Source: Trypanosoma brucei
Lineage: Eukaryota
NCBI GenBank assembly: GCA_000002445.1
Contig: CP000070.1
Coordinates: 1,376,001 to 1,440,000, forward strand
Length of the DNA: 64,000 nucleotides
Reading direction: 5' to 3'
The notes under the pieces are model-generated. The model saw only the letters and a list, made by a program, of their open reading frames with translations, ran no database searches and was not told where the DNA came from. Shown here in pieces: positions 39,286 to 59,706 of the stretch (the first letter of the stretch is position 1; every line of letters begins with the position of its first letter). The position numbers and the translations under genes were made by a program.

Positions 39286-39980
39286 CGTTTCTACCGGAGC
39301 AACCATTCTTCATCGTCGCATCCCTAAAAAGTTAACACAACTTTTTTTTCTTTGTCTACTGCGTTTGGGAGTGCGGGGCATCGAACTATCGAAAGCGGTA
39401 AAGGTATCAGGGAGGTCTAAGGAGCTCTTTTCCATTTCGTTTTTTACTGCTTTGCTGGATTTATTGTTCCTCCACGCCGTTTTGGAAATAAAGTGCAGTA
39501 AAAGAGGAGAGGCAGAAGCTTGTGTGTGTGGGGCCCCTAAAATGTGAGACATGTTTGAGCTTGTCCGTGCTCCCGTTATTATGAACAGAATATGCTTGAG
39601 CAGCGGTGTATGGGGATGGAAAATAGTGTGTGGAGCCCCCACTAATTTTGTGGGAATCGTTCGCAGTGGCGTATCCTCTTTTCCAGCTATCTTTTTTACT
39701 TGTTTTTAGTACATCTACGTGGTTAAGTGATATAACATGTACTGTCTCCCCCTTAATATCTTCTTCGTGAGTAACCCCGCGGTTCTCACATATGACTTTT
39801 CGTGTATATCTCCTTCACCTCCCCTCTTCTTTGTTGATGATGCATCATGCGTGAGATACATATATATATTGGTTGGTGGGGGAATAAAAGAAAAAGAGAG
39901 ACTGAAGTCACTACGATTGGATACATCAATAGTGTGAAGTGAGGGTAGTTTTACTCATATTACCTTTGAGTGCTCGTCGA

Positions 39981-43325: not shown

Positions 43326-44822
43326 ATGGGAGGAGGTTCATCCGTTGAAGACAAGCGCTACTCCCGGCTGTTCCAGGAGGGTCTCAAGGCGCTTCATGAG
43401 GGACGCTTTACATATGCTGAGATTTACTTTGATCAGGCCATTGAGAAACATGAGGGTTATCCATTCTGGCAGCGCCTTGACGAAATGGTAGAATGGGAAC
43501 GAAAGGGAAACACCGGTAAGCGAAAGGGAGAGGAGCAAAATGAAAAAGATCAGTGGGCGAAAGAAACAAAGCCTGAGACAGGTGGCGGTGAGGGAGCAGG
43601 AGAAGATGGCGCTGAAATGGATGATTTGGGAGGTGAATCCGATGACACTGGTGTTCTTGTGATTCCTCTCGATCAACGGGTATTTCACGTGTTGGAGTAC
43701 CTTCAGTTGCGCACCGACATTTCCGTCGCTTATTTGCTAGCTGAACGCTACGAAGAGGCACACGAGCACCTCCAATACGTCACGTCGCACACTCATGTGC
43801 TTTTGAAGTGTTTGCGCATTGCCCGGCAGAGTAATATGTCAGAGGAATCAGGCGGAGAAGGCGGTGACACGAATCCCCTTGAGCATGTTGGTGTAGTGGA
43901 GCGGCGGTTCCGTGCAGGTTTGATGGGCATGGAAGTGGAAGTGGAAGGTATCCTCGACGCCTTTGAACAATATCTTCGCCTGCACTGGTTCTCTGGAATT
44001 GCAAACACTGTTTACATCGCCTTTGAGCGGTTCAAGGGAGGGCAGGGTGATAAGAAGCGCAAGCGTGAGCTTGACGCCGTAGTTGTGACATGTGAAACGG
44101 CCAAGTTAGAACTTCACAAACTGGTGTCCCGCCGTGCTAAGAGCTTAACGAACAGTGTGTTGATTGAGTTCCTTGAGAAGCTCATTAATGATATGGACAG
44201 CAGCGCCTCGGACTCCGAGGATGATGGAAATGCAAACGGCGGCCGCAGTGGTGGTCCCGCCGCCAAGGGCAGAAGAAAGTCGGACAACCGCGAGGATGGC
44301 GACAAGGAAGAACTTGAGAACTTCCCATTCAGTGCACGACTTCAGATGCTTTACGAGCGTCGTCTGTTGTATCGGGGCATGCCCGCCCCCATGCAAGGTG
44401 CTGCCTTGCGTTACCTGCCTTGGATGGATGAAGATATCCGTCGTGTTGTTCCCGGTACAAACTACAACCTGGAGATTCAATGTGGTATGATTGATGATAG
44501 GCGTAAGAAGCAACTCCAAAAGAAATCTCTCAAGCACACAGTACAGAAGCGGTTTGACTTCAACGACAGGGTGCTATTCAACAAGAGTATGGATGAAGAA
44601 AATGCACTGCTGTTATTTCCATTACTTCTTGTTGAAGCTGATGTGCAATTAGAACTTGGTGCTGCCACGAAAGGCATTAAAGCGCTAGATATGGTCGAGA
44701 AATTGTCTACGCAATTATACGGCAGGCAGTCGCTTGAGCAACAGAGTCTCATGCGCCGTGTGTTGGAGACCCGTAAACGCGGTGGTGCTCTTTTCATGAT
44801 GTTTGATGACCAATTGAACTAA
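43326..44822 (+). CDS. Hypothetical acidic protein with N-terminal myristoylation consensus (MGGGSS)
   Basis: ATG at 43326. G2/S6 consensus. Glu/Asp-rich stretches. 498 aa. Confidence 0.6.
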   Translation: MGGGSSVEDKRYSRLFQEGLKALHEGRFTYAEIYFDQAIEKHEGYPFWQRLDEMVEWERKGNTGKRKGEEQNEKDQWAKETKPETGGGEGAGEDGAEMDDLGGESDDTGVLVIPLDQRVFHVLEYLQLRTDISVAYLLAERYEEAHEHLQYVTSHTHVLLKCLRIARQSNMSEESGGEGGDTNPLEHVGVVERRFRAGLMGMEVEVEGILDAFEQYLRLHWFSGIANTVYIAFERFKGGQGDKKRKRELDAVVVTCETAKLELHKLVSRRAKSLTNSVLIEFLEKLINDMDSSASDSEDDGNANGGRSGGPAAKGRRKSDNREDGDKEELENFPFSARLQMLYERRLLYRGMPAPMQGAALRYLPWMDEDIRRVVPGTNYNLEIQCGMIDDRRKKQLQKKSLKHTVQKRFDFNDRVLFNKSMDEENALLLFPLLLVEADVQLELGAATKGIKALDMVEKLSTQLYGRQSLEQQSLMRRVLETRKRGGALFMMFDDQLN

Positions 44823-47800
44823 ATGCAAAGGAAGCAAAGAAGAAAATAGGATGGGTGGATGTGAGAAAAGAAAAAAAGGAAAAAGAAATGGAAGCGTCAA
44901 GGGTTTAGAGTGTTTACGCTTTCTTCTATGTTTTTGTATGTGTGGGAAAGGGGGGGGAATAAGTAACAGAGGTGAAGAAACATACGCTACTGGTGCAATT
45001 TTTTTTTCTTTTTGTACACCAAAAAGAGGCGATAGCAGGAAGTACAGGGAAGAAAAGGGGGAAAAAGGCGAGACAAAACAAGATACCAAAGGAGAGATTG
45101 AACTAATGGAAAGGGAGAGAAAAGATGTTTATCCCCCCCACCCCAATTCGTTCATTTGATTGTTTCTTTTTATGTGTGCGCGTGTGTGTAAATATATATA
45201 TATATATATATTACAGGGGGCGGTAGGAGGGAAAGAAAAAGGCAAAACAAATGCAAAAGAAAAAGGGAATTAAAGGATTTGGGAGAAAAAGGAATAGGAG
45301 TAATAAAGAATAAAAGAAGTGGGAGCAAGTACAAAACAAAGCAAAGCAAAACACAAAAACAAAACAGGTGTAAAGGATAAAGCAAACAAACAACCAAATA
45401 AAAGACAATAAGTGACATGCAAGCGATGCGGTACAAATCAAATATGTGGGGGGTCCGCTGAATGGCTCTGTGGCTAACACGTTTGAGGAGCGGGCGGAAA
45501 TATTAACGGCAGGAGTAATTTTTTTAAAAAAAATGATTCGTATGTAAGTGAAAAAGTTATGAGAAGTAAACTGACAAATGTTTTTTGTCTGTGTTTTAAC
45601 GTTGTTGTGTACATTCATGTAAAGCGAATATATATATATATATATGTGTGTGTGTGAGAGAGAGAGAGAGAGAGTAAGTCAATGAGTGTTTTTCTGTCTG
45701 AAGGTAGGAAAATGATAATTTTTTTTCTCTTGTTAAAGCAACGTTTGTATGTCGTGTTTGCCTTTTTGTTAGCAATTTCTTTTCCTGTTGTCTTTTCCCC
45801 CCTTTACTTGCTATTTCCCTTAATATCTTTACTCGCTTTTGTTCATTCTAATTTCCCTTTTCTTTTTTTTTATGTATCTTTTATCTTTTCTGTTTTTTGA
45901 ATGTAACTCAGATATGCCACTGCTTCTGGTGGAAGTAACATAAAAGTGAACAACCGTTTTTGTTTTTTTTTGTTCTTAACATTCTCTCAGCGCCAAAAAC
46001 GCGAGGGAAGAAATACTACCAAAGAATGTGTGCAACTAAATTTGAAGTTTCTTTAAAAAAACAAAAATACAAAAAAACAAAAGAGAAAAGAGGGAAAAAA
46101 GAAAAATTATCGGAGGGAGTTTGCGGTCGCGAGTATTGTCACCCGTTTTCCTTCAGAGAAGTGTTTTAAGTGTAGGAATGCATGTGTGGGGGATTTTTTT
46201 TTTTTTTTTGTGAGGACGAGGAGCAAAGTTCACACTTAAATCAGAAGTGTAAAAGAAAAGGGAGAAAATAATGATAATGCTGATGATGATGATAATAAAA
46301 GAAAAGAGAAGAGGAGAGCGCAAACAAAAAGGAGGAAGAGACAAAGTATATAAATCAATAAATAAAAAGTTGAAGATATGAGGCTAAGAGGCAGAAAGCA
46401 ACATGCAGTAATGATTGTATATGCGCAGGAGATAAAAAGTGGTGCTGCCGCAGCCCTTTTTTTTTTTTCAAATTTAATCGTTTGTTCATCCGAGAGTGAA
46501 CAAATGTTTGAACGTATTTCCACCTGATGCCCCTCCCCCCCTCAACACACACACACACACCACCTAATTTCTTGCTTTTTTTTTTGAAACTATTTATTTA
46601 TTTTTTTACTCGGTTCTCTGTTCCTCATTCACCCTAGCCGTCTCATCTCTGCGCGGTACATACACGTATAAATGTAAATAATATATATATATATATATGT
46701 TTATTTATGCGTGTGTATTACGTTATATAATATTATATAACATTATCACATGATATGGTTATTATTGTTGTTGTTACTTATTATTATCATCGCCGTGGAC
46801 ATGCAATTTATGGTCCCTTTATTCTCACATTTTTCTCTCCGTCCCACCACCTGCGCATATATATATAAATATAAATAAATAAATATATATTTATTTATTT
46901 ATTTTCACCCTCCTTTCTTTTGGCGTATTGTTGATGCTGCCGCTGATTTTTATCTCTTTCATTGACTTGAACTGTTGTGTGCCCCTCCCCCTCCCCCTCC
47001 CCCGTACGCACCGCCTCAAAACAAAAAAATTTGTGCAGTGAAAAGAACTGAACTGAAATGAAATGAACTGAAATGAAATGAACTGAACTGAAATGAAATG
47101 AACTGAAATGAAAAATGGAAAAAGAGAAGGAATATACAAATGAAAGTCGAGGAGGAGAATGAAATCAGTTAAATGTTTGGGACAATTTCTTATTTTTCCG
47201 TTTCGTTTAGTTCGTTCCGAGGCCTCATTTATGCGGCGTTACGTCCTTTTGTCTTCGTTTTGTTTTTGTTTCAATTTGATTTGTTGTGTGTTTTATTTCC
47301 CATCAATCGCGTTCTCGTCACCACCACTACAACCACCAGTTTTCTCTGGCGTGTTTTTTTTTCTTTCTTTCTCTCTTAATTTCCTTTTTCTTCTTTTTTT
47401 CTCTCTTTTTTTTTTCTTTTTGGGACGAAAGGACAAATACGCTACCACTTAACGTCGCTCACGATAGTGGACGCAATGGAATACGTGTATTTGATTTGTT
47501 TTTTTTGTTTTTTTCTCTTCACTTTTCTGTTCTCGGTGTTGTGTCAAACTTTTTTTCTTTTTTTTTACTTTTTTTAAATATATATATATATATATATTTA
47601 TATATGTTTATGTGTTTTGGTGACAGAAGCAAAGGTGTTTAAAAGAAGCAAGAGAGAGAGAGAGATTAAAAAAAAAAATGAATATTTGAGATATGTTGCC
47701 TTTTCATACACATTAATATTCATATGTGTATTATATTCTCCTTTTTCTTCTTTTTTTTTCCAACGCCTTTTCCCATTTCTTAACCGTTCTTGCATCTTAC

Positions 47801-50800
47801 AATACCTCTTGATATTACTTTGTTCATGCACTTACTCGCTTATTTTAACTTCTTTCATATTATTCACAATAACATTCCCTTTACTTTTCCCTTTGTTTTT
47901 TTTTCCTTCATCTTACTTTATCTCTTTTTTTTTCTTTTTATTTTCCGTTTCACTCCTCCTCTCTTTTCTCCAGTTCCGCATAACTTTCCATGCCCGTGTG
48001 GAAACCCTCGAAGGCAAGTCTGCGTGAGTGAGCTTGTGATATTATTTGTGATTTAAATAAATAAATAAATAAATATATTTAAAATTGATGTTTTGTAATG
48101 TTCTGCCCATTTGTTTTTTTGTATGTTTTTTTTTTCCATTTGGTTCAATAACTAAAAACACCAAAAAAAAATTTAATTATAATATAAATATATATATATA
48201 TATTAATATTTGTTGTGGCTGGGAACACATCCACAGCGGCACCAACACCAGCAACGGTTCCTGGGGGAAGGCTTTTTTTTTAAATGTTTTAAATATTTTA
48301 AATATTTTATTATTATTTTAAATGTCAAAACGAAAAAAAACCCAAAAAAGAGAGAATTTTAAAAAAAATGTATAATCAAAAAAGAACGAGAAAAGGATGG
48401 GAAAAAAGACGGAGGATAGAAAAAAAAATTAAAAAGAAAAAAAAAAGACACACTTACAAGAGGCTAACGGAAAGGCATAAAATATGTGTGAAGGATGTGA
48501 ATACCCGCCTTCTTACAGGAAAAAAAAGAAAGAAAGAAAGAAAAAATATTTCCTTCATCTTTTTTTTAAAAATATTATGTCGTGATGAAGGTTTCAATTT
48601 ATTTTATATCTTTTAGCTTTCTTTTTTTCTTTTTTTTTATCTTTTCAGTTCTATCTCCTCCGTTTTTTTTTTTTTGCCGTGTCGAGTTTGGTGTTGTTTT
48701 AAAGGTCGCGATCATTTATGTCTTTTTGTTTGTTTGTTTGTTTTCTATTTTTTTAATTTGTTTGTTTTCCTCCCAATTCACTGTTGCTTTTGCTCTTACT
48801 TTTCCTTTTTGTTTGGTCATTCTTTCTGTTTTTTCCCCCTTTCTTTTGTTATTGTTGATGGATGAGCGTACAAAATCTTTTTTTTTTATTCCGTGTTCAT
48901 ATCATTTTATTTTATTTTATTGCTTGTTCAATTTTTGTGTTTTCTTTTGTTTAGTTTTTTTTTTTTGCTTTTTATGATTTTTTTGTATGTTTCGTTTCAT
49001 GTTTTGTTGTGCATCATTTTTCCTTCTTTTTTTTGTGTTGTTATTACTCATTTTCTGTTTTTTTTTGTTAACAATAAAAAAAGAAAGAGAAAACAAATAA
49101 AAAAAACACAAAAAGTGGAGAAAGTGAAGGTGACATTTAATCGTGTGGACACGGAAAGAAAATAAAAAGAAGGCAAGCGAGAGAACAAACAAAGGGAGAA
49201 AACAACACCACGAAAATAATAATAATAATAATAATAATAAGTAATTTATAAATCAAAACCATCAACAACACTAAAAAGCAAACGAAACGAAACGAATTGA
49301 TGATGACGACGACAACACGCAACATAATATTAGAAAAAGAAGAGGATGGGAGGGGGGAGAGGGGAAAGAAATAACTAAAATAAACAAAAAAACAAAAAAG
49401 GGATTCAATGGAAGATTAAAAAAAAAAAAATAGAAATAAATGCAACAACACTCGAGAAATAAATAAAAAAAAAGAGGGAGGAGGAAAAAAAAAGGTTTTG
49501 CCTGAATGTGTATTTGGAAAGGGAAGGCTATTTATGAAGGGAATTATTATTATGTAGACTCGGCAATAAGTGAAAGTAATGGCTTTTTTTTCTTTTTCTT
49601 TTTTCTTTTTGATCATAACGCACGCTTTTCTCATCCTTTTCTTTTTCTTTCCTTCTCTTTTTTTTATTTTGTTGTTTTGGTTTCTGAGCTGTAGTTTTCG
49701 CACATGTATGATTAATTTAACTGAGTGAAGAAAGGGAAAGTGAACGTAATATATTAAATGCATATACAGCACATGTGCATATTCACATATATATATATAT
49801 ATATATATATATTTCTAACACATGTGCGTGTTTCGGTGGAAGGAATTAATATATAAAGAGGAAAGGAATAACATTATATGATACAGTGTGAAATAAAACT
49901 AATGAAGTGATATGAAAATTTTCTTTTTTCCTTTTTGTTGTTGGCGCTGAAGCAATGATAAAAAAGAAAAGGGGTTGAAAATAATGGGATTTTGAGATGA
50001 ACCAAACCCAGAGGGATGAGGTAACTTTCGTTAAAAGAAAGAGAGAAGGGAAGATATTATGTGTATGAATGAAACTCTTTTCGTTTATTTGTATGCGCGG
50101 CAACGGTGTGGCGGGATGAGAAATTAAAATTAGTGAATCAGGAGAGGATATTATGCATCACAGGGGAATACAAGCATATATAATATATATATATATATAT
50201 AAACATATAGATAGCAATTTTCATTTTATATTTTAAAGAAAAGAGAAGTGGAAAATAAAGGAGCTTTAAGAAGAGATTTCTTTCCCCCTTTAAACCCCTC
50301 TTTCCCTCTCTTTCTGTCCTCCATTCCCCGACCCCCCGTGGCGTAGGGTTCTTTTTCTTTTTTTCTTTTTTTCTTTTTTTGCACTGACTGTCATTATTAC
50401 CATTACCATTATTATTATTATTATTGTTATTTTAATGTTTTCATTATTACCAAAAAAAAAAAACAACAAATTCTCCTCACCCGCCCCTCTAGCCGGCCCT
50501 TCCACTCTCATTTTTCTTTTTCTTTTTTGTTTTTTTCTTTTTGTATCCCTGCGGAGCAAAATCAGAGGGTCACAAAAGAAAAATACCCGGAGCCACTTAT
50601 ATGCACGTATGCATTTTTTAATTAAAAAATATATATATGTATATATGTATTGGTGTATCAAGTGCGTATATGTATGTATTTATTTCTCTTAATCGTGTTT
50701 CATTATAAGAGGATAAACAGCCAAATAAACAAAAGAAAAGGAAAGAAAAGAAAAAAAAGAAAAGCAAATGCGCATCATATATGTATGTAAAAAAAACAAA

Positions 50801-52285
50801 TAGATAAATATATGTGTGATGTGTTTCAGGGCAAGGGTCCTGCGGATTGAAAGTGTTTTTCGTTGTTTCTTTACTATTAATATTATTAATTTTCTTTACT
50901 TTTTTTTCTTTTTTGATCCCTTTTCTTTTTCTTTTTTTCTTTTATTTTCCTCCTTCATTCGATTTGCTTCTTTTTTTTTTAAAAAAAAACTAATGCGCAC
51001 TGCAGTGAGACAGCGATTGGTGGCGATACGTGACTTATACAAATATGTGATGATATGAAACGAAATGAAAGAGAAAAAAAAGGGTGAAAAGGAGAATGGG
51101 AAAAATATTTAAAAAAACCAAAACAGCAAAAAAAATTGAAAAAAAAAGAAAAAATGAGGCAATATTGTCATTATTACTGTTATTATTATTATTGTTATCG
51201 ACGTTTTGGTTACATGTGCAGGGCCTTATTGCAATGAGTTGTGAGACTTTCGATTCCCTTTTTCCCTTTCCCCTTTTGGCTTTTTTTTTTCCTCCCCCCC
51301 TCTCCACCTTTCTCTCTAGTTTTCCTTCCTTACAGACCTCCCTCACAGTTTTTCAGCTTCCCAATTTTACTCTTTCGTTTTTGGTTTGAGCTTTCTTCGT
51401 AATTTGTTTGTTTGTTTATTTCTTTGTTTGTGTTTCGGTTGGATGGGGGAAGGTGGGAAGAACAACAAAAATTAAAAGAAGGGATTGAAAAGAAAGCAAA
51501 CAAACCGATCGAAAGAGAAGAAACTTCAAACACGGAGAAAATAGAGAAGGCGAAAAGAAATAGTTTCGTAGAGTTTTGTTTTTGCGTCGCACCTCACGCA
51601 CGAACTTGTGAGTGTGTATCACCCGTCTACTGAACCGTGTGTTTGGACAACGTTTGCTCGGCACTTCGAAGCGAAGAAACGCTAACAAGCAAATAAACAA
51701 ACAATGAAAAAACATCATCAAGTAATCGTTCGGTTTTTTTTTTAGCGTTTGCCTATTTCGTCCTCCTCCCCCCCCCCTGTGCATCGTCACCTGTAACGGA
51801 TGGATGTGTAATGCTTATGCGAAGATGATCCTTCCCTCTTTTGACTTATATTACTGTGTTTGATTCTACTCTCAACTTACTACTGTCTTGTTTTTCCTAT
51901 TCAATTCTTCTTTATTTGCCTTTCCTCTTGATCGTTTAATCCTTTATAGTGTTTTCTCTCTCTCTCTCTCTATTCCTTTCCTTTTCTGTTGTCTGTTTGC
52001 TTGCGCGAAGGAAGTCACAGGTTTGTGTTTCATTGTAGGACCTCACGTATAATACTGAAAGGACTCAAAAAAAAAAAATTGTTTCCATAAGCAACAGAAG
52101 CGCAACAAAGTTAAGGAAAGTGCCTTCTGACATTTTGTTGTTGCACATCGCCTACGCATATCGTTTTGTTTATCCAAGAAAATACGCTAATTTAGTCGAC
52201 ATCCTTTCTACTGCAAGCTGTGAGGCAAAATCCAGTGATTTTCCTCTTGTTTGGTGTTGACGTTTGCGAAGGGAAGTAGCGTGTT
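44823..52285. repeat. About 7.5-kb ORF-free, AT-rich, low-complexity island dense in microsatellites and homopolymer runs
   Basis: No ORF longer than about 150 codons on either strand. (TA)n at about 45190, 45625, 46685, 47580, 49790 and 50180. (TG)n(GA)n at 45640-45680. (CA)n at 46545. (CCCCT)n at 46981-47010. A GAACT/GAAAT pentamer array at 47041-47110. (AAT)n at 49205-49235. (ATT)n at 50395-50435. Long strand-asymmetric polyT and polyA blocks. Confidence 0.8.
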
Positions 52286-53836
52286 ATGTTGCGCGAAAGG
52301 AGTTGCTCATGCAGCTGCACTTCAGAGGCATGCGGGCGCCTGCATTCGTGTTCCTGCACATTCAGCAGTGACAGCTGTGGTGAGAGGAGGCCAAATAGAA
52401 TCCGACAGAGAGCTTTGGATGTATCTGCTTATATGTCCTCGCAACCTTTGTCAATGTCTTCACGGCATAATACAGATTGTAGTTGCTCATGTTCCTGCGA
52501 TTGCAGCTGTAGCTCCTCTTGCAGCTGTAGTACTGGTTGTGACTCTTCTCGCAGTTGCAGTTGCAGTTGCAGTTGCAGTTGTTGTCGTTCTGCATACTCC
52601 TCTGCATGCCGTACGTGCGGAAGGGGGAATGATGACCAATCCGATGCGGAACGTGCACCGCATTATCCCAGCTGCCAGTACAGTGAAGATTTTTTGTCTG
52701 TTGCCCCACTTCTAATTCGGTTTGGTGCCTTCCCACCGCCCCGACCCCCGGAGGCTCCGCCTGTGCGTATGTTTCCAACGCCATCAGGTCTCCTCCCACC
52801 ACCAGAGCCGCTGAGAGCGTCAACAACTACTACAGAAACAACTCAGTCACTGGTGTCCACTCGTAGCGCAGAGGGGTCTGACATCATCACCACCGTTTCA
52901 TCGGGCGAACTGCGGGCGGCAGCGGAGGTGACTTCGATGCACCGGTCAATTGGGATGCAAACAGAAATTGAGAGTCGCGAACGAGGAGCGTCACCGATAC
53001 GAAAAGCAAAAACTGATGTGGGCACAAATACGGAAATGACGTTGGAGTTACTGGACCAGCAGCAGGCCACGCTTCAGCAACAAACGATGATACTGCACCA
53101 GCACATGGAGCGGTGTGTCATTCTTGAAAGGCAGCGATATGAGGTGGATTGTGAACATGCGGCGTTCTGCGAGGATGTGAGACGTTGGCAAGAGTTGCAA
53201 AGGGAGACTGCGGTCGCGCAGTTTATTGTGGCGGTGGAAAAGAGCTACAGCGATGTGAAAGTGCAAGAGGAAGAGGGACGCGCGCTCCTCAAAACTTTCA
53301 TGGACTTTTCAAGCCAGTCAGTGATTTCACTCCAGCAGAATTGCATTGATCAAGTGCAACATCAGATGACATTTGCTCATCAACAGCGAACGATTCTTGA
53401 AGGAAAACATTACGACGTTATTGTTGATGAATTGTGGCATCGACTTGCTGTGGTGGAAATGGAGGAGGAATCACGTCGGAATCTCCATGTCCTATATGAT
53501 ACCATTTCTGACATGCGGCGCGCGCGGGAGCGAATGACAGCCGCTGAGGCAGAGGTTGAACATGAGAAGGAAATTACGGCGTCGGTGCGGAGGGATTTGC
53601 AAGACGTGCTGCAGCGTGAGAAGGAATTGCAGCTGAAATATTTGTATATCCTACGGGTGCCCACAACAACCATTATTTCCCGTGATTACAAAAACAACGA
53701 TGGCCCTGTGGGAGGTCATGATGAGTGGGACGATGACATGCCAGTGCATGTGCGGTTTTCCCGTGCGCACCGAGCGGCAGTAGAAGCTGTTAGCGCAAAG
53801 CGTCGTTGCTCCCTTGAACTTAAATGCTTTCTGTAA
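52286..53836 (+). CDS. Hypothetical protein: Cys/Ser-rich low-complexity N-terminus (CSCSCS) and coiled-coil-prone C-terminal half
   Basis: ATG at 52286. N-terminal 110 aa encoded by TGCAGT-like hexamer repeats (52490-52600). The C-terminal half is rich in E/Q/R/L heptad-like sequence (QQQATLQQQTMILHQHMERCVILERQRYE...). The true start could be a downstream Met. Confidence 0.5.
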   Translation: MLRERSCSCSCTSEACGRLHSCSCTFSSDSCGERRPNRIRQRALDVSAYMSSQPLSMSSRHNTDCSCSCSCDCSCSSSCSCSTGCDSSRSCSCSCSCSCCRSAYSSACRTCGRGNDDQSDAERAPHYPSCQYSEDFLSVAPLLIRFGAFPPPRPPEAPPVRMFPTPSGLLPPPEPLRASTTTTETTQSLVSTRSAEGSDIITTVSSGELRAAAEVTSMHRSIGMQTEIESRERGASPIRKAKTDVGTNTEMTLELLDQQQATLQQQTMILHQHMERCVILERQRYEVDCEHAAFCEDVRRWQELQRETAVAQFIVAVEKSYSDVKVQEEEGRALLKTFMDFSSQSVISLQQNCIDQVQHQMTFAHQQRTILEGKHYDVIVDELWHRLAVVEMEEESRRNLHVLYDTISDMRRARERMTAAEAEVEHEKEITASVRRDLQDVLQREKELQLKYLYILRVPTTTIISRDYKNNDGPVGGHDEWDDDMPVHVRFSRAHRAAVEAVSAKRRCSLELKCFL

Positions 53837-54379: not shown

Positions 54380-55363
54380 ATGAGTTCCCTCTTGAAGGTT
54401 CATCAGTTGGACCAGCGCATGCAGTTCAACCCAAATATCACTACCGGGTACCGTCCCCATATGCCGGTGAAGGAAGCTTTTCACACCTTTTTCCACTTGC
54501 ACAACGAATCGTTCAACATGTGGTCGCACGCTGTTGCTGCATGTTTCATACTTTATTTGATGGTATTTCCTCCGGTGGAGGATTTATTGGAGGTAAATGG
54601 TAAGGTTGTGCTGCGTCAGAGGGTTGTTCCGGCAGAGGAGGCCAATTTCCTACTGTCTGCCAGCCCAACTGTTGTTTTCCGGTCAACATGTCTCATGGCA
54701 TTCGTGGCATTTGTTTGCAGTGTTGCGTATCATATTCTCATACCGTGCGGGGCTTCAAGGTCCGTATGGGTACGGTTACTAAGTTGTGATGCCATCGGTA
54801 CTGTCCTTACCACCACAGGCACCGCATGGAGTTTTCTCTACCGCGGTAACGCTTGCGCTTCGCTTCACACCTCCCACCGTGTCGCCGTGCTTCTTCTGCT
54901 TCTCTCCGCCGCTGCACTCACTGCTGTGCTTCGATGTGGCTCTTGTAGCTCACCATCAGCTAGAGGAAAGGTAATGGGTTTCTTTTCGCTTCCATATCTT
55001 GCGTTGGTGTTGTGGATGGAAGTGCCCAAAGCCTATACACAGGGTCATTGCACAGCAGTAAACTATCATACACTTAGTTGGGTGTTTATTGCCTTGGGTA
55101 CTTTCGTAAACGCATCGCGGTTTCCTGAGGTGCAGGTGTGTCGGATAACCCGTTGTACCGCAAGGAAACCGGAAAAACGATCCGATATGAAACCAAAGTG
55201 GTGGAGATGGCTTATACGTTGTTTGTTGTCTAGTGATGAGATTGATTACGCGTGGAACAGCCACAACATATGGCATTATTGCGTTATCCTCAGTGTAATT
55301 GCCAAGTTGTTGGGTTGCAGATATGACATGGTGGAGTTCGAGTTGGCGCGGTGCGTGACTTGA
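54380..55363 (+). CDS. PAQR family (adiponectin-receptor / hemolysin III-like) 7-TM membrane protein
   Basis: ATG at 54380. Family motif NITTGYRPHMPVKEAFHTFFHLHNESFNMWSH (GYRP...F..HNE..N.W.H). Multiple hydrophobic helices. 327 aa is typical. PolyY plus AG at 54060-54200. Confidence 0.85.
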   Translation: MSSLLKVHQLDQRMQFNPNITTGYRPHMPVKEAFHTFFHLHNESFNMWSHAVAACFILYLMVFPPVEDLLEVNGKVVLRQRVVPAEEANFLLSASPTVVFRSTCLMAFVAFVCSVAYHILIPCGASRSVWVRLLSCDAIGTVLTTTGTAWSFLYRGNACASLHTSHRVAVLLLLLSAAALTAVLRCGSCSSPSARGKVMGFFSLPYLALVLWMEVPKAYTQGHCTAVNYHTLSWVFIALGTFVNASRFPEVQVCRITRCTARKPEKRSDMKPKWWRWLIRCLLSSDEIDYAWNSHNIWHYCVILSVIAKLLGCRYDMVEFELARCVT

Positions 55364-56262: not shown

Positions 56263-59200
56263 ATGTCAGCGAGGGCAGCAAGCCCTGATTGTAGCTATGT
56301 CAGCAGCGGAAAATCCAATGAATCAAGGGGAAGTCCTGTTGGAAGTTATGTAAGTAGCGGTGAGAAGGCAAGCAATTTGAATAGTGCGCAACTCAGCGGT
56401 GCAAACAGTAAACCACCCAGCAACCGAAAAGGAAGTCCTGTTGGAAGTTATGTTAGTAGCGGTGAGAAGGCAAGCAATTTGAATAGTGCGCAACTCAGCG
56501 GTGCAAACAGTAAACCACCCAGCAACCGAAAAGGAAGTCCTGTTGGAAGTTATGTTAGTAGCGGTGAGAAGGCAAGCAATTTGAATAGTGCGCAACTCAG
56601 CGGTGCAAACAGTAAACCACCCAGCAACCGAAAAGGAAGTCCTGTTGGAAGTTATGTAAGTAGCGGCGAGAAGGCAAGCAATTTGAATAGTGCGCAACTC
56701 AGCGGTGCAAACAGTAAACCACCCAGCAACCGAAAAGGAAGTCCTGTTGGAAGTTATGTAAGTAGCGGCGAGAAGGCAAGCAATTTGAATAGTGCGCAAC
56801 TCAGCGGTGCAAACAGTAAACCACCCAGCAACCGAAAAGGAAGTCCTGTTGGAAGTTATGTTAGTAGCGGTGAGAAGGCAAGCAATTTGAATAGTGCGCA
56901 ACTCAGCGGTGCAAACAGTAAACCACCCAGCAACCGAAAAGGAAGTCCTGTTGGAAGTTATGTAAGTAGCGGCGAGAAGGCAAGCAATTTGAATAGTGCG
57001 CAACTCAGCGGTGCAAACAGTAAACCACCCAGCAACCGAAAAGGAAGTCCTGTTGGAAGTTATGTTAGTAGCGGTGAGAAGGCAAGCAATTTGAATAGTG
57101 CGCAACTCAGCGGTGCAAACAGTAAACCACCCAGCAACCGAAAAGGAAGTCCTGTTGGAAGTTATGTAAGTAGCGGCGAGAAGGCAAGCAATTTGAATAG
57201 TGCGCAACTCAGTGACTCTAGCAGGAAGCATCCTTGTAACAAAAATGTCGAATCAACACCTATAGGAGGGAATTCTTCGGTCGTGCCAGGCGAGCCACCG
57301 ATCGCTGGTGTTTCCAGCATTAAACGGTGTCCCGTGGAACAATCCGATATAAACAGCCTTTCAGCATGGATTGTCCCTAGTTCCCCTCCACAGGGTGCTG
57401 CGGACGAGCTGCACATTCATAGGGAATTACTGAACACACCACCGGCACCGGTGAAACTTACCCTATACGAGAAGGACAACAGTCCCAATGATGGGAATGA
57501 TCCAGTTTTTTACCGTCCGTTTTTGAGAAACTCAGCAAATGGTGGTTCGACTTATGCTTCCTTCACCAATACATCACCATACCCACTTAGTCACAGGGAT
57601 GTTGAGGTTCTTTACGAGTCTCATAAACGGCAAGTGGAAGTATGCCGTGAGGCTGCTCGAGCAGAAGAGGAGATCGCCCGAAGGAAGCGGCAGGAAATCA
57701 ATGCAGAGACTGCGCGCATTGTTTCCGAGGCCTCACGGCTGAGTTTCTCGATGGGCACTCATCGCAAAGTGTACGACGAAGCAATGGACCGGCTTCGGGA
57801 AGTTCGACCAGGGTCGGCCCTACCGAAAGCGTGTAGAATTAAAACACCGCGCCGGATTCTTTTTTCTTCACTCGTAGATTCTTCTGGTTCCTACGGATAT
57901 GGCCCAGCGAGGCGGATGGAAACAATAAAGGATTTTGGCCCCAGTATTCGGAACAATTATAGAGGGAGAACCGGCGGGGCCCAAGTGGCTTTGGCTCTAC
58001 TGAAATCGAGGTTCATGGCTGGCTGGGTTGCCCCAAACGTTGTTGACCGTTTTTCTCCTCACTCACCGGTAGCGCAGACTCTCTCATCTAAATACTTTGT
58101 GGAGCAGCAAACGAACGTCGACCATCCGCACCCGCATAAACGAGAAGTAGTCCCTGAGAAAACCGACTTCGGTAACACAAACAACGTGAATGGCTCCGAA
58201 GATGCAACTGTGCACGTTGTTTCAACGGCGCCAACCGCTTTTTGTGATATGGCAACACCGCACAGCAGCATTAACGTTGCGAAAGCATCAGAAAACGTGA
58301 CAATGCCGTACTGCAGCTCCATTTTGCCTGAACCAGTGAGGGAGTTGCCCCAAAGTAATGATGTACTTCAAAATGCTGTGGGTGAGGAGGATAAAAATGT
58401 AGTTGCCGAACTACCGCCACCAACAATACCTTTACACCAACAGTCGGTATCGCAGCATCAGCAGTTGGAACATCAACACCAACCGTCGCTGGAGGATAAT
58501 CAAAAACAAGAAGAGTCGTCGCTAACACCAGTTAGGGTTCCACTGCCGCTCCCACCTCCAACACGTCTATCGTCCGTGGATGTGAAAATGAAATCACCAC
58601 AAGGGGTGGAGTCACATATATATTCACAGTCATCGACATCACTTCAGGAGGTGGAACTATCCTTTGAAAACCCACGGCCCCCGGTTGTGGAACCTGAGGC
58701 ACTAACGGAGGAAGACAAGCAGGTATTGGAACTATTAAACAACGTCCGTGACCTGCGTCTGGAAACGGAGAAACTGGTTGTTGAATTACTCCACTCAACT
58801 GACGAATGGGGATGTTGGTGTAGTCGGAAAGGGAGTCTTTTTCGTGACTTATTTGTCCTTCCTGACGCGAGGACCGTTGCTGAGGTGAGTAAACGAGCCA
58901 TGCGTACACGAGCGACTCATGACACAACGGCAGAGGAACATCCAATCGATGTGAGAGACAACTTAATTGCTGCAAGGCCACTTAGTCAAGAAAAATTTGC
59001 TCCTAGAATTCCGCCGCCACCTCCTATTGATGTTCTGCTAAAGTGTGTGGTCGATGGGGAGCAGCAACACGTTGCCGAAACAGAAGAGGACGCCTACGGT
59101 GAGTGGGAGAACGACCCGGAAGTTGAGTGCGCCTCATCCCCTAGTGTTCTTCCAGATCATTTGGATGAGGCAAACACGAATTTATTGAGAAGTGCAGCAA

Positions 59201-59706
59201 CGCGACAACCCCATTTACCTGATTCACAGCACTCACCATCATCATCATCTGATACCAGTGGCGGCGGAACTGACAGTAGTGATTACTCCTGTGCTGAGGA
59301 AGAGGCCGATGGTGATGAAAAGAGTGAAGAAAACTCGTCGTGGTCGTATGATTCATCGCTTTCCTCAGCCAAAGCCCCGCCGCCACCCCCATCCCATGAG
59401 GATGAAGAGAAGCGGCGTACAGAAGAAGTTTTACAAAAAGAAACGATGACTCAAGAAATTGAAGGGCCGAGGCCTCCCAACGAGTCTGTACTTCTTTCCG
59501 ACACTATGGACCCTTCACCCACTCCCATTCATCCTGTATTTCATGCCGAAGCCACGGGCAAAAGGACTGGACCAAAACAAAAAAAAGAGGACAAACATGA
59601 AAAGAAGAAGAAAGGAGTGAAGGGATTCTTTTCACGTTTGATGTGTTGTGGAGGTGGAAGCACATCAGTGGCAGATGGAAAGGGGAGCACCACACAAAAA
59701 AAATAA
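56263..59706 (+). CDS. Hypothetical repeat protein with 9 x 34-aa near-identical N-terminal repeats and a Ser/Pro/Glu-rich C-terminal region ending in a CCGGG motif
   Basis: ATG at 56263. Repeat unit GSPVGSYVSSGEKASNLNSAQLSGANSKPPSNRK. 1147 aa. Confidence 0.7.
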   Translation: MSARAASPDCSYVSSGKSNESRGSPVGSYVSSGEKASNLNSAQLSGANSKPPSNRKGSPVGSYVSSGEKASNLNSAQLSGANSKPPSNRKGSPVGSYVSSGEKASNLNSAQLSGANSKPPSNRKGSPVGSYVSSGEKASNLNSAQLSGANSKPPSNRKGSPVGSYVSSGEKASNLNSAQLSGANSKPPSNRKGSPVGSYVSSGEKASNLNSAQLSGANSKPPSNRKGSPVGSYVSSGEKASNLNSAQLSGANSKPPSNRKGSPVGSYVSSGEKASNLNSAQLSGANSKPPSNRKGSPVGSYVSSGEKASNLNSAQLSDSSRKHPCNKNVESTPIGGNSSVVPGEPPIAGVSSIKRCPVEQSDINSLSAWIVPSSPPQGAADELHIHRELLNTPPAPVKLTLYEKDNSPNDGNDPVFYRPFLRNSANGGSTYASFTNTSPYPLSHRDVEVLYESHKRQVEVCREAARAEEEIARRKRQEINAETARIVSEASRLSFSMGTHRKVYDEAMDRLREVRPGSALPKACRIKTPRRILFSSLVDSSGSYGYGPARRMETIKDFGPSIRNNYRGRTGGAQVALALLKSRFMAGWVAPNVVDRFSPHSPVAQTLSSKYFVEQQTNVDHPHPHKREVVPEKTDFGNTNNVNGSEDATVHVVSTAPTAFCDMATPHSSINVAKASENVTMPYCSSILPEPVRELPQSNDVLQNAVGEEDKNVVAELPPPTIPLHQQSVSQHQQLEHQHQPSLEDNQKQEESSLTPVRVPLPLPPPTRLSSVDVKMKSPQGVESHIYSQSSTSLQEVELSFENPRPPVVEPEALTEEDKQVLELLNNVRDLRLETEKLVVELLHSTDEWGCWCSRKGSLFRDLFVLPDARTVAEVSKRAMRTRATHDTTAEEHPIDVRDNLIAARPLSQEKFAPRIPPPPPIDVLLKCVVDGEQQHVAETEEDAYGEWENDPEVECASSPSVLPDHLDEANTNLLRSAATRQPHLPDSQHSPSSSSDTSGGGTDSSDYSCAEEEADGDEKSEENSSWSYDSSLSSAKAPPPPPSHEDEEKRRTEEVLQKETMTQEIEGPRPPNESVLLSDTMDPSPTPIHPVFHAEATGKRTGPKQKKEDKHEKKKKGVKGFFSRLMCCGGGSTSVADGKGSTTQKK
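56329..57215 (+). repeat. 102-bp coding tandem repeat, about 8.7 copies, near-perfect identity with two alternating synonymous variants (gtaagtagcggcgag / gttagtagcggtgag)
   Basis: Direct inspection: ggaagtcctgttggaagttatgt recurs every 102 nt from 56329 to 57145. Confidence 0.9.

What the first reader, a model, noticed from the sequence alone, without database searches (positions are those of the whole stretch)
52286..52620. Cys/Ser alternating low-complexity N-terminus encoded by a TGCAGT-type hexamer microsatellite
About 45 Cys lie in the first 110 residues as CSCSCS runs (metallothionein-like density), followed by a long coiled-coil-prone region. Either this is an unusual metal- or redox-binding or heavily palmitoylated head on a filament-like protein, or the hexamer array is non-coding 5' sequence and the real start is a downstream Met (for example the MSSQPLSMSS Met, or the MHRSIGMQTEIE Met at about 52950).
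Basis: seen in the sequence. Interest (0 to 1): 0.5.

Follow-up and report, generated by a model that had tools for sequence, protein, structure and literature searches.

The report
Translated Cys/Ser-rich head of Tb927.7.5350
The Cys/Ser-rich stretch is a real, translated and evolutionarily conserved N-terminal segment of an uncharacterised trypanosome coiled-coil protein, not untranslated repeat DNA; it is much less extreme than first described and its biochemical role (metal binding or lipid anchoring) is still untested.

Summary
The window is T. brucei TREU927 chromosome 7. The ORF at 52286-53836 (+) is Tb927.7.5350, a 516-aa "hypothetical protein, conserved".

- **Observation.** The first 110 residues hold 23 Cys and 34 Ser, not about 45 Cys. 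They form two clusters, residues 7-31 and 65-111. Only 31 nt (52551-52581, (GCAGTT)x5.2) is a true microsatellite. The rest uses all six Ser codons.
- **Coding status.** The segment is almost certainly coding.
  - CxC-rich segments sit at the same position in T. congolense, T. rangeli, T. grayi (upstream of a truncated gene model) and two distant trypanosomatids, where they are internal.
  - T. rangeli and T. grayi keep the Cys and Ser residues through synonymous and TCN/AGY codon changes.
  - The annotated spliced-leader site lies 1211 nt upstream of the ATG.
  - No strong splice acceptor lies inside the ORF.
  - Ribosome footprints cover the CDS, not the 5'UTR.
- **Polymorphism.** T. b. equiperdum has one CS unit fewer.
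- **Structure.** AlphaFold predicts residues 1-250 disordered, then a 205-residue helix.
- **Function.** Untested. I favour a metallothionein-like metal-thiolate cluster (about 0.4) over multiple palmitoylation (about 0.3).

Interest is moderate.

The parts
52286..53836 (+). Complete ORF of Tb927.7.5350 (XP_846158.1 / Q57ZF4), 516 aa plus stop; 'hypothetical protein, conserved'
   Evidence: The ORF list gives these coordinates. The exact-sequence look-up returns T. brucei TREU927 accessions. The gene ID and chromosome coordinates (Tb927_07_v4:1427074-1429836, CDS 1550) come from Vasquez 2014 supplement 6. The longest uORF length matches that table, which confirms the mapping.
52304..52378 (+). 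Cys/Ser cluster 1, residues 7-31 (CSCSCTSEACGRLHSCSCTFSSDSC), 7 Cys
   Evidence: It aligns with the CSC clusters of T. congolense, T. rangeli and T. grayi.
52379..52477 (+). Cys-free basic/Ser-rich linker, residues 32-64, containing the in-frame Mets M50 and M57
   Evidence: M50 and M57 are not conserved in T. congolense.
52478..52618 (+). Cys/Ser cluster 2, residues 65-111, 17 Cys in 47 residues; contains the family-conserved CSCS(C) core
   Evidence: The core aligns with RSYSCSC (T. congolense), CCSCSVYPSCYY (T. rangeli), SCSCSVYPSCYY (T. grayi), ECSCSCSSC (P0009) and VCSCSCDSC (P0008).
52551..52581 (+). The only true microsatellite: perfect (GCAGTT)x5.2, read in frame as (S-C)5; one unit shorter in T. 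b. equiperdum
   Evidence: Tandem Repeats Finder result. The equiperdum protein P0011 is 514 aa, with SRSCSCSCSCCRS in place of SRSCSCSCSCSCCRS. Four other T. brucei-group assemblies have the same copy number.
52697..52723 (+). Conserved 'PxLL(H/R)(L/F)' motif (SVAPLLIRF, residues 138-146), 30-50 residues after the CSC core in every orthologue
   Evidence: Alignment A3; coordinates.
52622..53041 (+). Pro/Ser/Thr-rich region predicted disordered (residues 113-252), with SGLLPPPEPL, a TQT-like RSIGMQTEIE (52943-52972), RGASP and NTEMT motifs
   Evidence: pLDDT is 28-46 here. Composition is and motif conservation.
53042..53656 (+). Single long alpha-helix, residues 253-457 (coiled-coil stalk candidate)
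   Evidence: AlphaFold2 with a 9-sequence alignment predicts helix 253-457 with pLDDT >90.
53612..53833 (+). Most conserved C-terminal module: QREKELxLxYLxxLRxPTTTI, MPVHVRFxRAHRxA helix (487-515), ending RRCSLELKCFL
   Evidence: Invariant columns in A3 and A4; helix 487-515.
51074..52285 (+). Annotated 5'UTR (1211 nt, 7 uORFs, none with footprints); the annotated spliced-leader acceptor AG is at 51072-51073
   Evidence: Vasquez 2014 supplement 6; mapped and checked.
51880..52020 (+). Strongest proximal polypyrimidine tract (51880-52005) with candidate acceptor AGs at 52009, 52013 and 52019. No ATG lies between these and 52286
   Evidence: This is a sequence-based prediction, not an experimental mapping.

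Best explanation
The Cys/Ser-rich stretch (52286-52621) is the translated N-terminal head of Tb927.7.5350, a trypanosomatid-specific protein. The protein is built as follows: a disordered CxC-cluster head, a PxLL motif, a Pro/Thr/Ser-rich linker with a TQT-like motif, a ~205-residue helix, and a conserved C-terminal module.

The head descends from an ancestral set of about three CxC clusters present across trypanosomatids. In T. brucei the most conserved CSCS core has been lengthened in frame by slippage of a short (GCAGTT)5 repeat. That repeat is still length-polymorphic (4 units in T. b. equiperdum).

- Shown: the segment is real, in frame and conserved as protein.
- Inferred: translation most likely starts at the ATG at 52286.
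- Inferred, not shown: the head works through its thiols. The most likely mode is a metallothionein-like cluster in which CxC pairs chelate soft metal ions (Zn or Cu). This would make the N-terminus of a dimeric coiled-coil scaffold metal-loaded or metal- and redox-responsive.

My confidence is about 0.9 that the segment is coding and conserved. It is about 0.4 for the metal-thiolate mechanism. The number in the confidence field refers to the mechanism.
For: **Coding and conserved**
- T. congolense orthologue P0002 (36-39% identity overall) has a two-cluster CS-rich N-terminus.
- T. rangeli P0005 starts MHTSCSCSMPAESCSCS....
- In T. grayi the annotated model is truncated. The in-frame upstream extension (L003 373-750) encodes CCSCSYSS...ESCSCSS...SCSCSVYPSCYY.
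- The distant orthologues P0009 (759 aa) and P0008 (1298 aa) carry 12-16 Cys in 76-84 residues at an internal position, just upstream of the same PxLL motif.
- Synteny with the downstream HlyIII gene holds in T. theileri and T. grayi.
- T. rangeli encodes its segment with all six Ser codons and no microsatellite.
- Between T. rangeli and T. grayi, pN is 0.39 against pS 0.80. Of 16 conserved Ser, 12 use different codons, 5 of them across TCN/AGY. The block CSCSVYPSCYY has 5 synonymous and 0 non-synonymous changes.
- In T. brucei and T. congolense the only Mets upstream of the conserved PxLL motif are M1, M50 and M57, and M1 and M12 respectively.
- The annotated 5'UTR is 1211 nt. CDS footprints are 41.6 and 28.4 rpkm, against 1.3 and 2.4 in the 5'UTR (PMC3973304 supplement 6).
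- No AG with a strong polypyrimidine tract lies inside 52286-53100. For the proximal acceptor candidates (51948 onward) the next ATG is 52286.
- Five T. brucei-group sequences differ in the CS DNA by one synonymous SNP only.

**Metal-thiolate reading**
- CxC is enriched 2-3 fold over composition-preserving shuffles in all six orthologous segments. CC is depleted in T. brucei.
- Cluster 2 is hydrophilic (C17, S19, D3, R3, T2, G2, A2, Y1), with no His and one aromatic residue.
- There is no signal peptide or TM segment, and no N-myristoylation site (MLRERS...).
- The only PDB sequences retrieved by cluster 2 are yeast Cu-metallothionein Cup1 entries (SCSCSTGCDSS against SCSCPTGCNSD). The E-value is 3, so this is not significant.
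- The region is predicted disordered, as apo-metallothioneins are.
Against: - There is no direct evidence for metal binding.
- No Pfam metallothionein or CXC family matches, even at E<=10.
- The PDB match is not significant.
- The number of Cys varies from 11 to 24 between orthologues, and several T. brucei Cys align with Ser, Ala or Thr in T. congolense. This is loose for a cluster of fixed stoichiometry.
- Metallothioneins are small free-standing proteins, not heads of 516-1298-aa scaffolds.
- Part of the C-S alternation in T. brucei is an automatic product of hexamer slippage.
- On the start codon, the footprint data available to me are whole-CDS values. No peptide, SL-read or codon-resolved ribosome evidence for the first 112 codons was accessible.
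- The annotated long 5'UTR carries 11 upstream ATGs (7 uORFs), so 52286 is the first AUG only for proximally spliced mRNAs.
- Codon-usage scoring does not favour the CS frame over the +1 frame in this segment, -0.05 against +0.11.
Confidence: 0.4

Rival explanations
1. The head is a multiply S-palmitoylated membrane anchor. DHHC acyltransferases acylate the clustered Cys. With C-S alternation in an extended strand, all acyl chains face one side. This would pin the N-terminus of the coiled-coil protein to a membrane. The adjacent ExxxLL-like PxLL motif could then act as a sorting signal.
For: - The protein is cytosolic, with dense Cys clusters near the N-terminus.
- Cys number and exact positions vary between species while the overall density is kept, as expected if only 'several acylatable Cys' matter.
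- Four of eight orthologues have E-x-x-x-L-L at the adjacent motif, for example LEAPQLL and MEVPRLL.
- Conserved Cys also lie near the C-terminus in several orthologues (RRCSLELKCFL, RRMCA, QRCA).
- From general knowledge, cysteine-string protein, SNAP-25 and Sprouty/SPRED Cys-rich domains are precedents.
Against: - The clusters are embedded in Ser, Asp and Arg, with almost no hydrophobic or basic flank.
- There is no myristoylation or prenylation site to provide first membrane contact.
- CC pairs, common in known palmitoylated strings, are depleted (1 against 4.9 expected). The CxC spacing is specifically enriched in every orthologue.
- The T. brucei palmitoyl-proteome paper (Emmer 2011) could not be consulted.
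Confidence: 0.3
2. The head is translated but has no specific thiol chemistry. It is a disordered, compositionally biased spacer whose Cys/Ser content drifts by slippage. At most it would be a generic redox-sensitive or disulfide cross-linking region of a cytoskeletal protein, as in keratin-associated or sperm outer-dense-fibre proteins.
For: - pLDDT is about 30 throughout residues 1-250.
- Segment lengths and Cys counts vary across orthologues, from 11 to 24.
- A slippage-prone repeat sits in the core and is length-polymorphic.
- pN/pS is about 0.5 in the N-terminus of T. rangeli against T. grayi, so constraint is only moderate.
Against: - Cys is costly and rare (2.2% background). Even so, CxC clusters persist at the same place from African trypanosomes to GC-rich distant trypanosomatids, without any shared DNA repeat.
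- Blocks such as CSCSVYPSCYY show only synonymous change.
- The reducing trypanothione cytosol argues against stable disulfides (general knowledge).
Confidence: 0.2
3. The hexamer-rich segment is non-coding 5' sequence, and translation begins at a downstream Met (M50, M57, M162 or M218).
For: - Codon-usage scoring does not favour the CS frame in this segment.
- An automated prokaryote-style gene caller on five Logan contigs starts the gene at GTG 52763.
- M162 is conserved in T. congolense.
- No codon-resolved translation data were available.
Against: - In-frame, stop-free, CxC-rich segments are conserved in six orthologues, and are internal in two of them.
- The pattern of synonymous substitution fits coding sequence.
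- The PxLL motif, conserved family-wide, lies upstream of M162 and M218.
- M50, M57 and M218 are not conserved in T. congolense.
- The annotated SL site is 1211 nt upstream of the ATG.
- No strong acceptor lies inside the ORF.
Confidence: 0.05
4. The +1-frame ORF 52251-52715 (154 aa, Ala/Val-rich, AVAVAVAV over the repeat) is a separate or overlapping gene.
For: - The ORF is open for 154 codons.
- It scores slightly better on codon usage.
- It is called as a 98-aa gene on the Logan contigs.
Against: - (TGCAGT)n-type sequence is open in all three forward frames by construction.
- The product is low-complexity, and its counterpart in T. grayi is unrelated in sequence.
- The CS frame, by contrast, is contiguous with a conserved protein in every species.
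Confidence: 0.01

Closest known systems
Metallothioneins, especially fungal and ciliate Cu-metallothioneins (yeast Cup1; the long modular Tetrahymena and Cryptococcus MTs, recalled from general knowledge)
   Same: - Local Cys content is 36% in residues 65-111.
- CxC motifs dominate, set in Ser/Gly/Asp/Thr context, with almost no aromatic residues or His.
- The region is predicted disordered without metal.
- The only PDB sequence hits are Cup1 entries, with SCSCSTGCDSS aligned to SCSCPTGCNSD.
   Different: - The match is not significant (E=3), and there is no Pfam metallothionein hit.
- The segment is a head on a 516-1298-aa coiled-coil protein, not a small free protein.
- The Cys number is not fixed between species.
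- Metal binding is untested.
Palmitoylated cysteine strings (cysteine-string protein DNAJC5, SNAP-25 linker, Sprouty/SPRED SPR domain)
   Same: A dense cluster of Cys in a cytosolic protein that could give membrane attachment. The exact Cys positions are poorly conserved.
   Different: - There is no J domain or SPR domain.
- Cys alternate with Ser rather than forming CC runs.
- The flanks are hydrophilic.
- There is no primary membrane-targeting signal.
Coding microsatellites and in-frame tandem-repeat polymorphisms in low-complexity protein regions
   Same: A perfect (GCAGTT)5.2 array is read in frame. A one-unit length difference separates TREU927 from T. b. equiperdum.
   Different: The array accounts for only 31 of about 335 nt. 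The Cys/Ser-rich character predates the repeat and is kept in species that lack it.
High-sulfur structural proteins (keratin-associated proteins, sperm outer dense fibre protein ODF1)
   Same: A Cys/Ser-rich low-complexity region attached to or associated with filament-forming coiled-coil proteins.
   Different: Those act by disulfide cross-linking in oxidising or terminally differentiated contexts. They have different repeat units (CCxP, CGP). No homology was detected.

Membership tests
Metallothionein | High Cys content (about 20-30% or more) arranged as CxC, CxxC or CC motifs | tested here: met
   Cys is 21% over residues 1-112 and 36% over residues 65-111. There are 13 CxC motifs against 4.9 expected. 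CxC is enriched in all six orthologous segments.
Metallothionein | Small, free-standing polypeptide (typically under 10 kDa), few or no aromatic or His residues | tested here: not met
   The segment is part of a 516-aa protein, and is internal in the 759- and 1298-aa orthologues. Cluster 2 itself has 1 Tyr and 0 His. The whole head has 3 aromatic residues and 2 His.
Metallothionein | Sequence match to a curated metallothionein family or a solved metallothionein | tested here: not met
   No Pfam family matches at E<=10 for five orthologous CS segments or E<=1 for the whole protein. The PDB hits to Cup1 have E=3 and 3.7, which is not significant. There was no hit for the P0008 segment.
Metallothionein | Formation of metal-thiolate clusters | not testable with these tools
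   This needs recombinant protein with ICP-MS, native MS and UV spectroscopy.
Palmitoylated cysteine-string proteins | Cys string with CC runs, flanked by hydrophobic or basic residues, or preceded by another lipid or TM anchor | tested here: not met
   CC is depleted (1 observed, 4.9 expected). The flanks are Ser, Asp and Arg. The N-terminus MLRERS has no Gly2, and there is no CaaX (the C-terminus is ...LKCFL).
Palmitoylated cysteine-string proteins | Demonstrated S-acylation | not testable with these tools
   The T. brucei palmitoyl-proteome paper (Emmer 2011, PMC3067466) is not held.
Coding microsatellite | Perfect head-to-tail copies of a 1-6 nt unit | tested here: met
   (GCAGTT)x5.2 with 100% matches at 52551-52581. 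No other array was reported in 52286-52620.
Coding microsatellite | Copy-number polymorphism between strains, in multiples of three bases | tested here: met
   T. b. equiperdum P0011 is 514 aa, with one S-C unit fewer. Four other assemblies match TREU927.
Tb927.7.5350 orthologue family (trypanosomatid-specific, unnamed) | Conserved C-terminal REKELRLQYLxxLRLPTTTI and PVHVRFARAHRxA module; PxLL motif; synteny with the HlyIII gene | tested here: met
   The profile search returned 8 proteins with E<=1e-3 in a library of 1.84 billion. All five hits with a source name are Trypanosoma; the three without a name were judged trypanosomatid only by their similarity to these. Invariant columns are listed. 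HlyIII lies downstream in T. brucei, T. theileri and T. grayi.
LC8 (DYNLL) client proteins | TQT-type anchor motif in a disordered segment next to a dimerisation or coiled-coil region | tested here: inconclusive
   TQT occurs upstream of the helix in T. rangeli, T. theileri, P0009 and P0008 (three times). Variants are VQT in T. grayi, MQT in T. brucei and VQV in T. congolense. The consensus is recalled from memory, and binding was not tested.

The most novel reading that the evidence does not exclude
The CxC-cluster head is a previously unrecognised metallothionein-like metal-thiolate module, conserved across trypanosomatids. It is tethered to a dimeric, possibly LC8-bound, coiled-coil scaffold. 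On this reading it is a localised metal store, chaperone or metal/redox sensor, in a lineage for which my literature search found no parasite-encoded metallothionein.
Probability: 0.25. Interest if true: 0.6.

Novelty: new variant of a known kind. Interest (0 to 1): 0.35.

Why it matters
- **Annotation.** The annotated start of Tb927.7.5350 should stand. The T. grayi orthologue model is truncated by 126 codons, and the T. theileri model abuts an assembly gap. Prokaryote-style gene callers split this gene.
- **Biology.** The finding defines an uncharacterised trypanosomatid-specific protein family with a clear modular plan: CxC head, PxLL motif, TQT-like motif, long helix and a conserved C-terminal module.
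- **If the head binds metal or is multiply acylated.** It would be an unusual way of attaching a metal-thiolate cluster or a lipid anchor to a coiled-coil scaffold in a parasite. It could be tested directly with one recombinant fragment and one tagging experiment.
- **If it does not.** It would then be an ordinary, slippage-prone low-complexity region.

Tried and rejected
- **Codon-usage frame scoring** of the CS segment was inconclusive. The +1 frame scores slightly higher because Ala and Val codons are common and Cys is rare.
- **Word-indexed homology searches** were swamped by low-complexity words. The full-length query gave only 2 hits. The 8-sequence profile gave the same 2. The C-terminal profile gave none. 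The exhaustive profile search was what found the family.
- **Logan contigs** (L001, L004, L005, L006, L010) were inspected for a spliced leader or poly(A). L001 and L004 carry no spliced-leader sequence. L004 starts inside the polypyrimidine tract upstream of the gene. Contig ends fall at an A-run (L001), just before a G-run (L004) or next to a variable site (L010). They therefore look like genomic assemblies and give no transcript-end information.
- **Supplements** of Nilsson 2010, Kolev 2010, TrypTag 2023 and Benz & Urbaniak 2019 hold no entry for Tb927.7.5350 in the stored, partly cut text. Siegel 2010 supplements, Parsons 2015, Emmer 2011 and Urbaniak 2013 are not held.
- **Literature searches** by gene ID, protein accessions and orthologue locus tags returned nothing. 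A search for parasite metallothioneins returned only host-cell papers.
- **Pfam** on the whole protein and on five CS segments gave no hit.
- **Fold search** was not run. The model is one long helix plus disorder, so matches would be meaningless.
- **T. theileri** is uninformative for the head, because a run of N abuts the gene model.
- **The +1-frame ORF** was rejected as a gene (see rivals).
Full report
**Identity of the locus**

All 21 ORFs of 200 aa or more, bar two embedded ones, lie on the + strand, as in a trypanosomatid polycistron. The exact 516-aa product of 52286-53836 is XP_846158.1 / Q57ZF4, 'hypothetical protein, conserved', from T. brucei brucei TREU927, on a 2.2-Mb record.

Neighbouring genes fix the position:
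- The YEATS protein at 33810-35798 is YEA2, Tb927.7.5310 (PMC8559703).
- The ORF at 43326-44822 fits CARP3, Tb927.7.5340 (PMC9481589).
- The HlyIII protein at 54380-55363 is Tb927.7.5360 (PMC7568655).

Supplement 6 of Vasquez et al. 2014 (PMC3973304) lists Tb927.7.5350 at Tb927_07_v4:1427074-1429836 (+) with a CDS of 1550 nt. This places the window at chr7:1,376,001-1,440,000. The longest uORF I find in that 5'UTR (51096-51389, 294 nt) matches the table's value of 293, which confirms the mapping.

**Checking the observation**

The ORF and its Cys/Ser-rich start are real, but the numbers were overstated.
- Residues 1-110 hold 23 Cys and 34 Ser.
- There are two clusters, residues 7-31 with 7 Cys and residues 65-111 with 17 Cys. 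A Cys-free linker containing M50 and M57 separates them.
- Tandem Repeats Finder sees one perfect array only, (GCAGTT)x5.2 at 52551-52581.
- Elsewhere the six Ser codons are mixed, and lag-6 autocorrelation is modest at 0.38.

The enrichment is far beyond chance.
- Against a 2.2% Cys background in the window's other ORFs, P is 4e-17.
- A degenerate CSCSCS codon pattern hits 6 times in the window, 5 of them here. Shuffles give 0.13 expected.
- CxC occurs 13 times against 4.9 in composition-preserving shuffles.

**Coding or not: orthologues**

An exhaustive profile search of 1.84 billion representatives found only eight relatives. The five with a source name are all Trypanosoma; the three unnamed Logan proteins I take to be trypanosomatid only from their similarity to these.
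- T. congolense (508 aa) and T. rangeli (472 aa) begin with CS-rich segments.
- The T. grayi model starts at MLLEAPQLL. The 126 in-frame codons upstream, from an ATG just after a polypyrimidine tract and AG, encode CCSCSYSS...ESCSCSS...SCSCSVYPSCYY.
- The T. theileri model abuts a run of N and says nothing either way.
- Two distant, GC-rich orthologues from Logan assemblies (759 and 1298 aa) have the Cys-rich segment internally.
- In all six sequences that cover the region, a CSCS(C)...SC core lies 30-50 residues upstream of a conserved PxLL(H/R)(L/F) motif.
- HlyIII is the downstream neighbour in T. theileri and T. grayi as well.

**Coding or not: selection acts on the protein**

- T. rangeli encodes its segment with all six Ser codons and no repeat.
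- Between T. rangeli and T. grayi, pN is 0.39 and pS is 0.80.
- Of 16 conserved Ser, 12 use different codons, five of them across the TCN/AGY divide.
- The block CSCSVYPSCYY carries five synonymous and no non-synonymous differences.
- Alignment of low-complexity sequence is biased towards matching C and S. The two blocks AESCSCS and CSCSVYPSCYY are nonetheless unambiguous.

**Coding or not: transcript and translation evidence**

- The annotated 5'UTR is 1211 nt, with its acceptor AG at window 51072-51073.
- RNA coverage of the 5'UTR (29 and 62 rpkm) is comparable to that of the CDS (43 and 47 rpkm).
- Footprints are 41.6 and 28.4 rpkm on the CDS, against 1.3 and 2.4 on the 5'UTR.
- These are whole-feature values. 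They show that the gene is translated and that the mapped SL site is upstream. They do not resolve the first 112 codons.
- By sequence, AGs preceded by strong polypyrimidine tracts occur at 51318-51355, 51948, 52009-52019 and 52270-52278. None occurs within 52286-53100.
- For every candidate from 51948 onward, the next ATG is 52286.
- In T. brucei and T. congolense no Met lies between the CS region and the PxLL motif. Any product containing that motif must therefore include cluster 2 in T. brucei, or both clusters in T. congolense.
- M50, M57 and M218 are not conserved in T. congolense.

I therefore put the non-coding alternative at about 0.05.

**Strain variation**

Four Logan assemblies (ERR7929156, ERR7929161, ERR7929162 and ERR7929163) match the window through the CS DNA. 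The only difference is a synonymous A/G at 52399. T. b. equiperdum is 514 aa, with one S-C unit fewer in the perfect array.

Against ERR7929162, the CS segment has 1 SNP in 335 nt. The rest of the ORF has 8 in 1216 nt, most of them non-synonymous. The head is therefore not a hypervariable region.

In T. brucei the microsatellite sits exactly on the family's most conserved CSCS core. I read it as an in-frame, lineage-specific expansion of that core.

**Architecture**

AlphaFold2 was run with nine sequences.
- Residues 1-250 have pLDDT of about 30.
- Residues 253-457 form one helix with pLDDT above 90.
- Residues 487-515 form a short helix.

Conserved motifs outside the head:
- PxLL (residues 138-146);
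- SGLLPPP;
- a TQT-like motif (RSIGMQTEIE in T. brucei; TQT proper in four orthologues, three copies in one);
- TSP;
- NTExT;
- REKELRLQYLxxLRLPTTTI;
- PVHVRFARAHRxA.

No Pfam family matches the protein.

**Mechanism**

Nothing here tests the chemistry. I weigh three readings.

A metal-thiolate cluster is favoured, at about 0.4.
- The conserved feature is the CxC spacing, enriched 2-3 fold in every orthologue. CC is depleted in T. brucei.
- The context is hydrophilic (Ser, Asp, Arg, Gly, Thr).
- There is no lipid or TM signal to bring the segment to a membrane.
- The only PDB sequences retrieved are Cu-metallothionein Cup1 entries, at a non-significant E of 3.

Against this reading:
- No Pfam metallothionein family matches.
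- Cys counts vary from 11 to 24.
- The segment sits in a large scaffold, not a small free protein.

Multiple palmitoylation is the main rival, at about 0.3. It explains the tolerance to changes in Cys number. It would also give meaning to the adjacent ExxxLL-like motif, present in four of eight orthologues.

A translated but chemically unspecific low-complexity spacer stands at about 0.2.

**Comparison and novelty**

The gene is annotated but undescribed. Its ID, accessions and orthologue tags occur in no main text of the held library.

The head works like, but fails membership tests for, both metallothioneins and cysteine-string anchors. The perfect repeat is an ordinary coding microsatellite.

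I file the finding as a new variant of a known kind, a Cys-cluster head on a lineage-specific coiled-coil protein. Interest is moderate, at 0.35.

Noticed in passing
window 52943-52972 (residues 220-229) and orthologues P0003-P0009: A TQT-like motif lies just upstream of the long helix. It reads RSIGMQTEIE in T. brucei, SIEVQVE in T. congolense, SIAVQTK in T. grayi, SIATQTT in T. theileri, VSTQTE in T. rangeli and VGTQTD in P0009. P0008 has GTQTA, GTQTE and GTQTE. It resembles the dynein light chain LC8 anchor motif. That consensus is recalled from memory and binding is untested.
   Followed up: partly
window 52697-52723 (residues 138-146): A PxLL(H/R)(L/F) motif is conserved in all orthologues, 30-50 residues after the CSC core. 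In four of eight it reads E-x-x-x-L-L, like an acidic dileucine sorting signal.
   Followed up: partly
window 52251-52715 (+1 frame) and GTG 52763: A 154-aa Ala/Val-rich ORF overlaps the CS region in the +1 frame. The automated caller on Logan contigs calls part of it as a 98-aa gene and starts the real gene at GTG 52763. This is an artefact of the hexamer being open in several frames.
   Followed up: yes
L003 373-750 (T. grayi JMRU01000451.1); L002 upstream of 3001 (T. theileri NBCO01000036.1): The T. grayi model DQ04_04511000 lacks 126 in-frame upstream codons, including the Cys-rich segment. The T. theileri model TM35_000361610 starts 18 nt after a long run of N, so its 5' part is probably lost in an assembly gap.
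   Followed up: yes
window 51074-52285: The annotated 1211-nt 5'UTR of Tb927.7.5350 has 11 upstream ATGs (7 uORFs by stop codon, longest 294 nt). None carries footprints in Vasquez 2014. RNA coverage of the UTR in procyclics exceeds that of the CDS, possibly through overlap with the upstream gene's 3'UTR.
   Followed up: partly
window 44823-52285: A 7.4-kb stretch between CARP3 and Tb927.7.5350 has no ORF of 200 aa or more. The part scanned for repeats (50000-52285) is AT-rich and full of short low-complexity repeats.
   Followed up: no
window 56329-57212 (in ORF 56263-59706, presumably Tb927.7.5370): There are 8.7 near-perfect copies (98% matches) of a 102-bp unit encoding a 34-aa Ser-rich repeat (GSPVGSYVSSGEKASNLNSAQLSGANSKPPSNRK). 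The 1147-aa protein has no Pfam hit.
   Followed up: no
window 31162-31655 (in ORF 30631-32757): There are 9.1 copies of a 54-bp Pro-rich repeat inside a protein with C2 and ankyrin domains.
   Followed up: no
window 53801-53833: The C-terminus RRCSLELKCFL (T. congolense RRCSLALRCGF; distant orthologues end RRMCA or QRCA) has conserved Cys near the end, but not in CaaX register.
   Followed up: no
window 37045-39285 and 39939-42296: If gene numbers run consecutively from YEA2 (Tb927.7.5310) to CARP3 (Tb927.7.5340), these two ORFs are Tb927.7.5320 and Tb927.7.5330. The first carries DUF7759, DUF7761 and DUF7762. TrypTag supplements list those two gene IDs under kinetoplast and antipodal sites respectively.
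   Followed up: no
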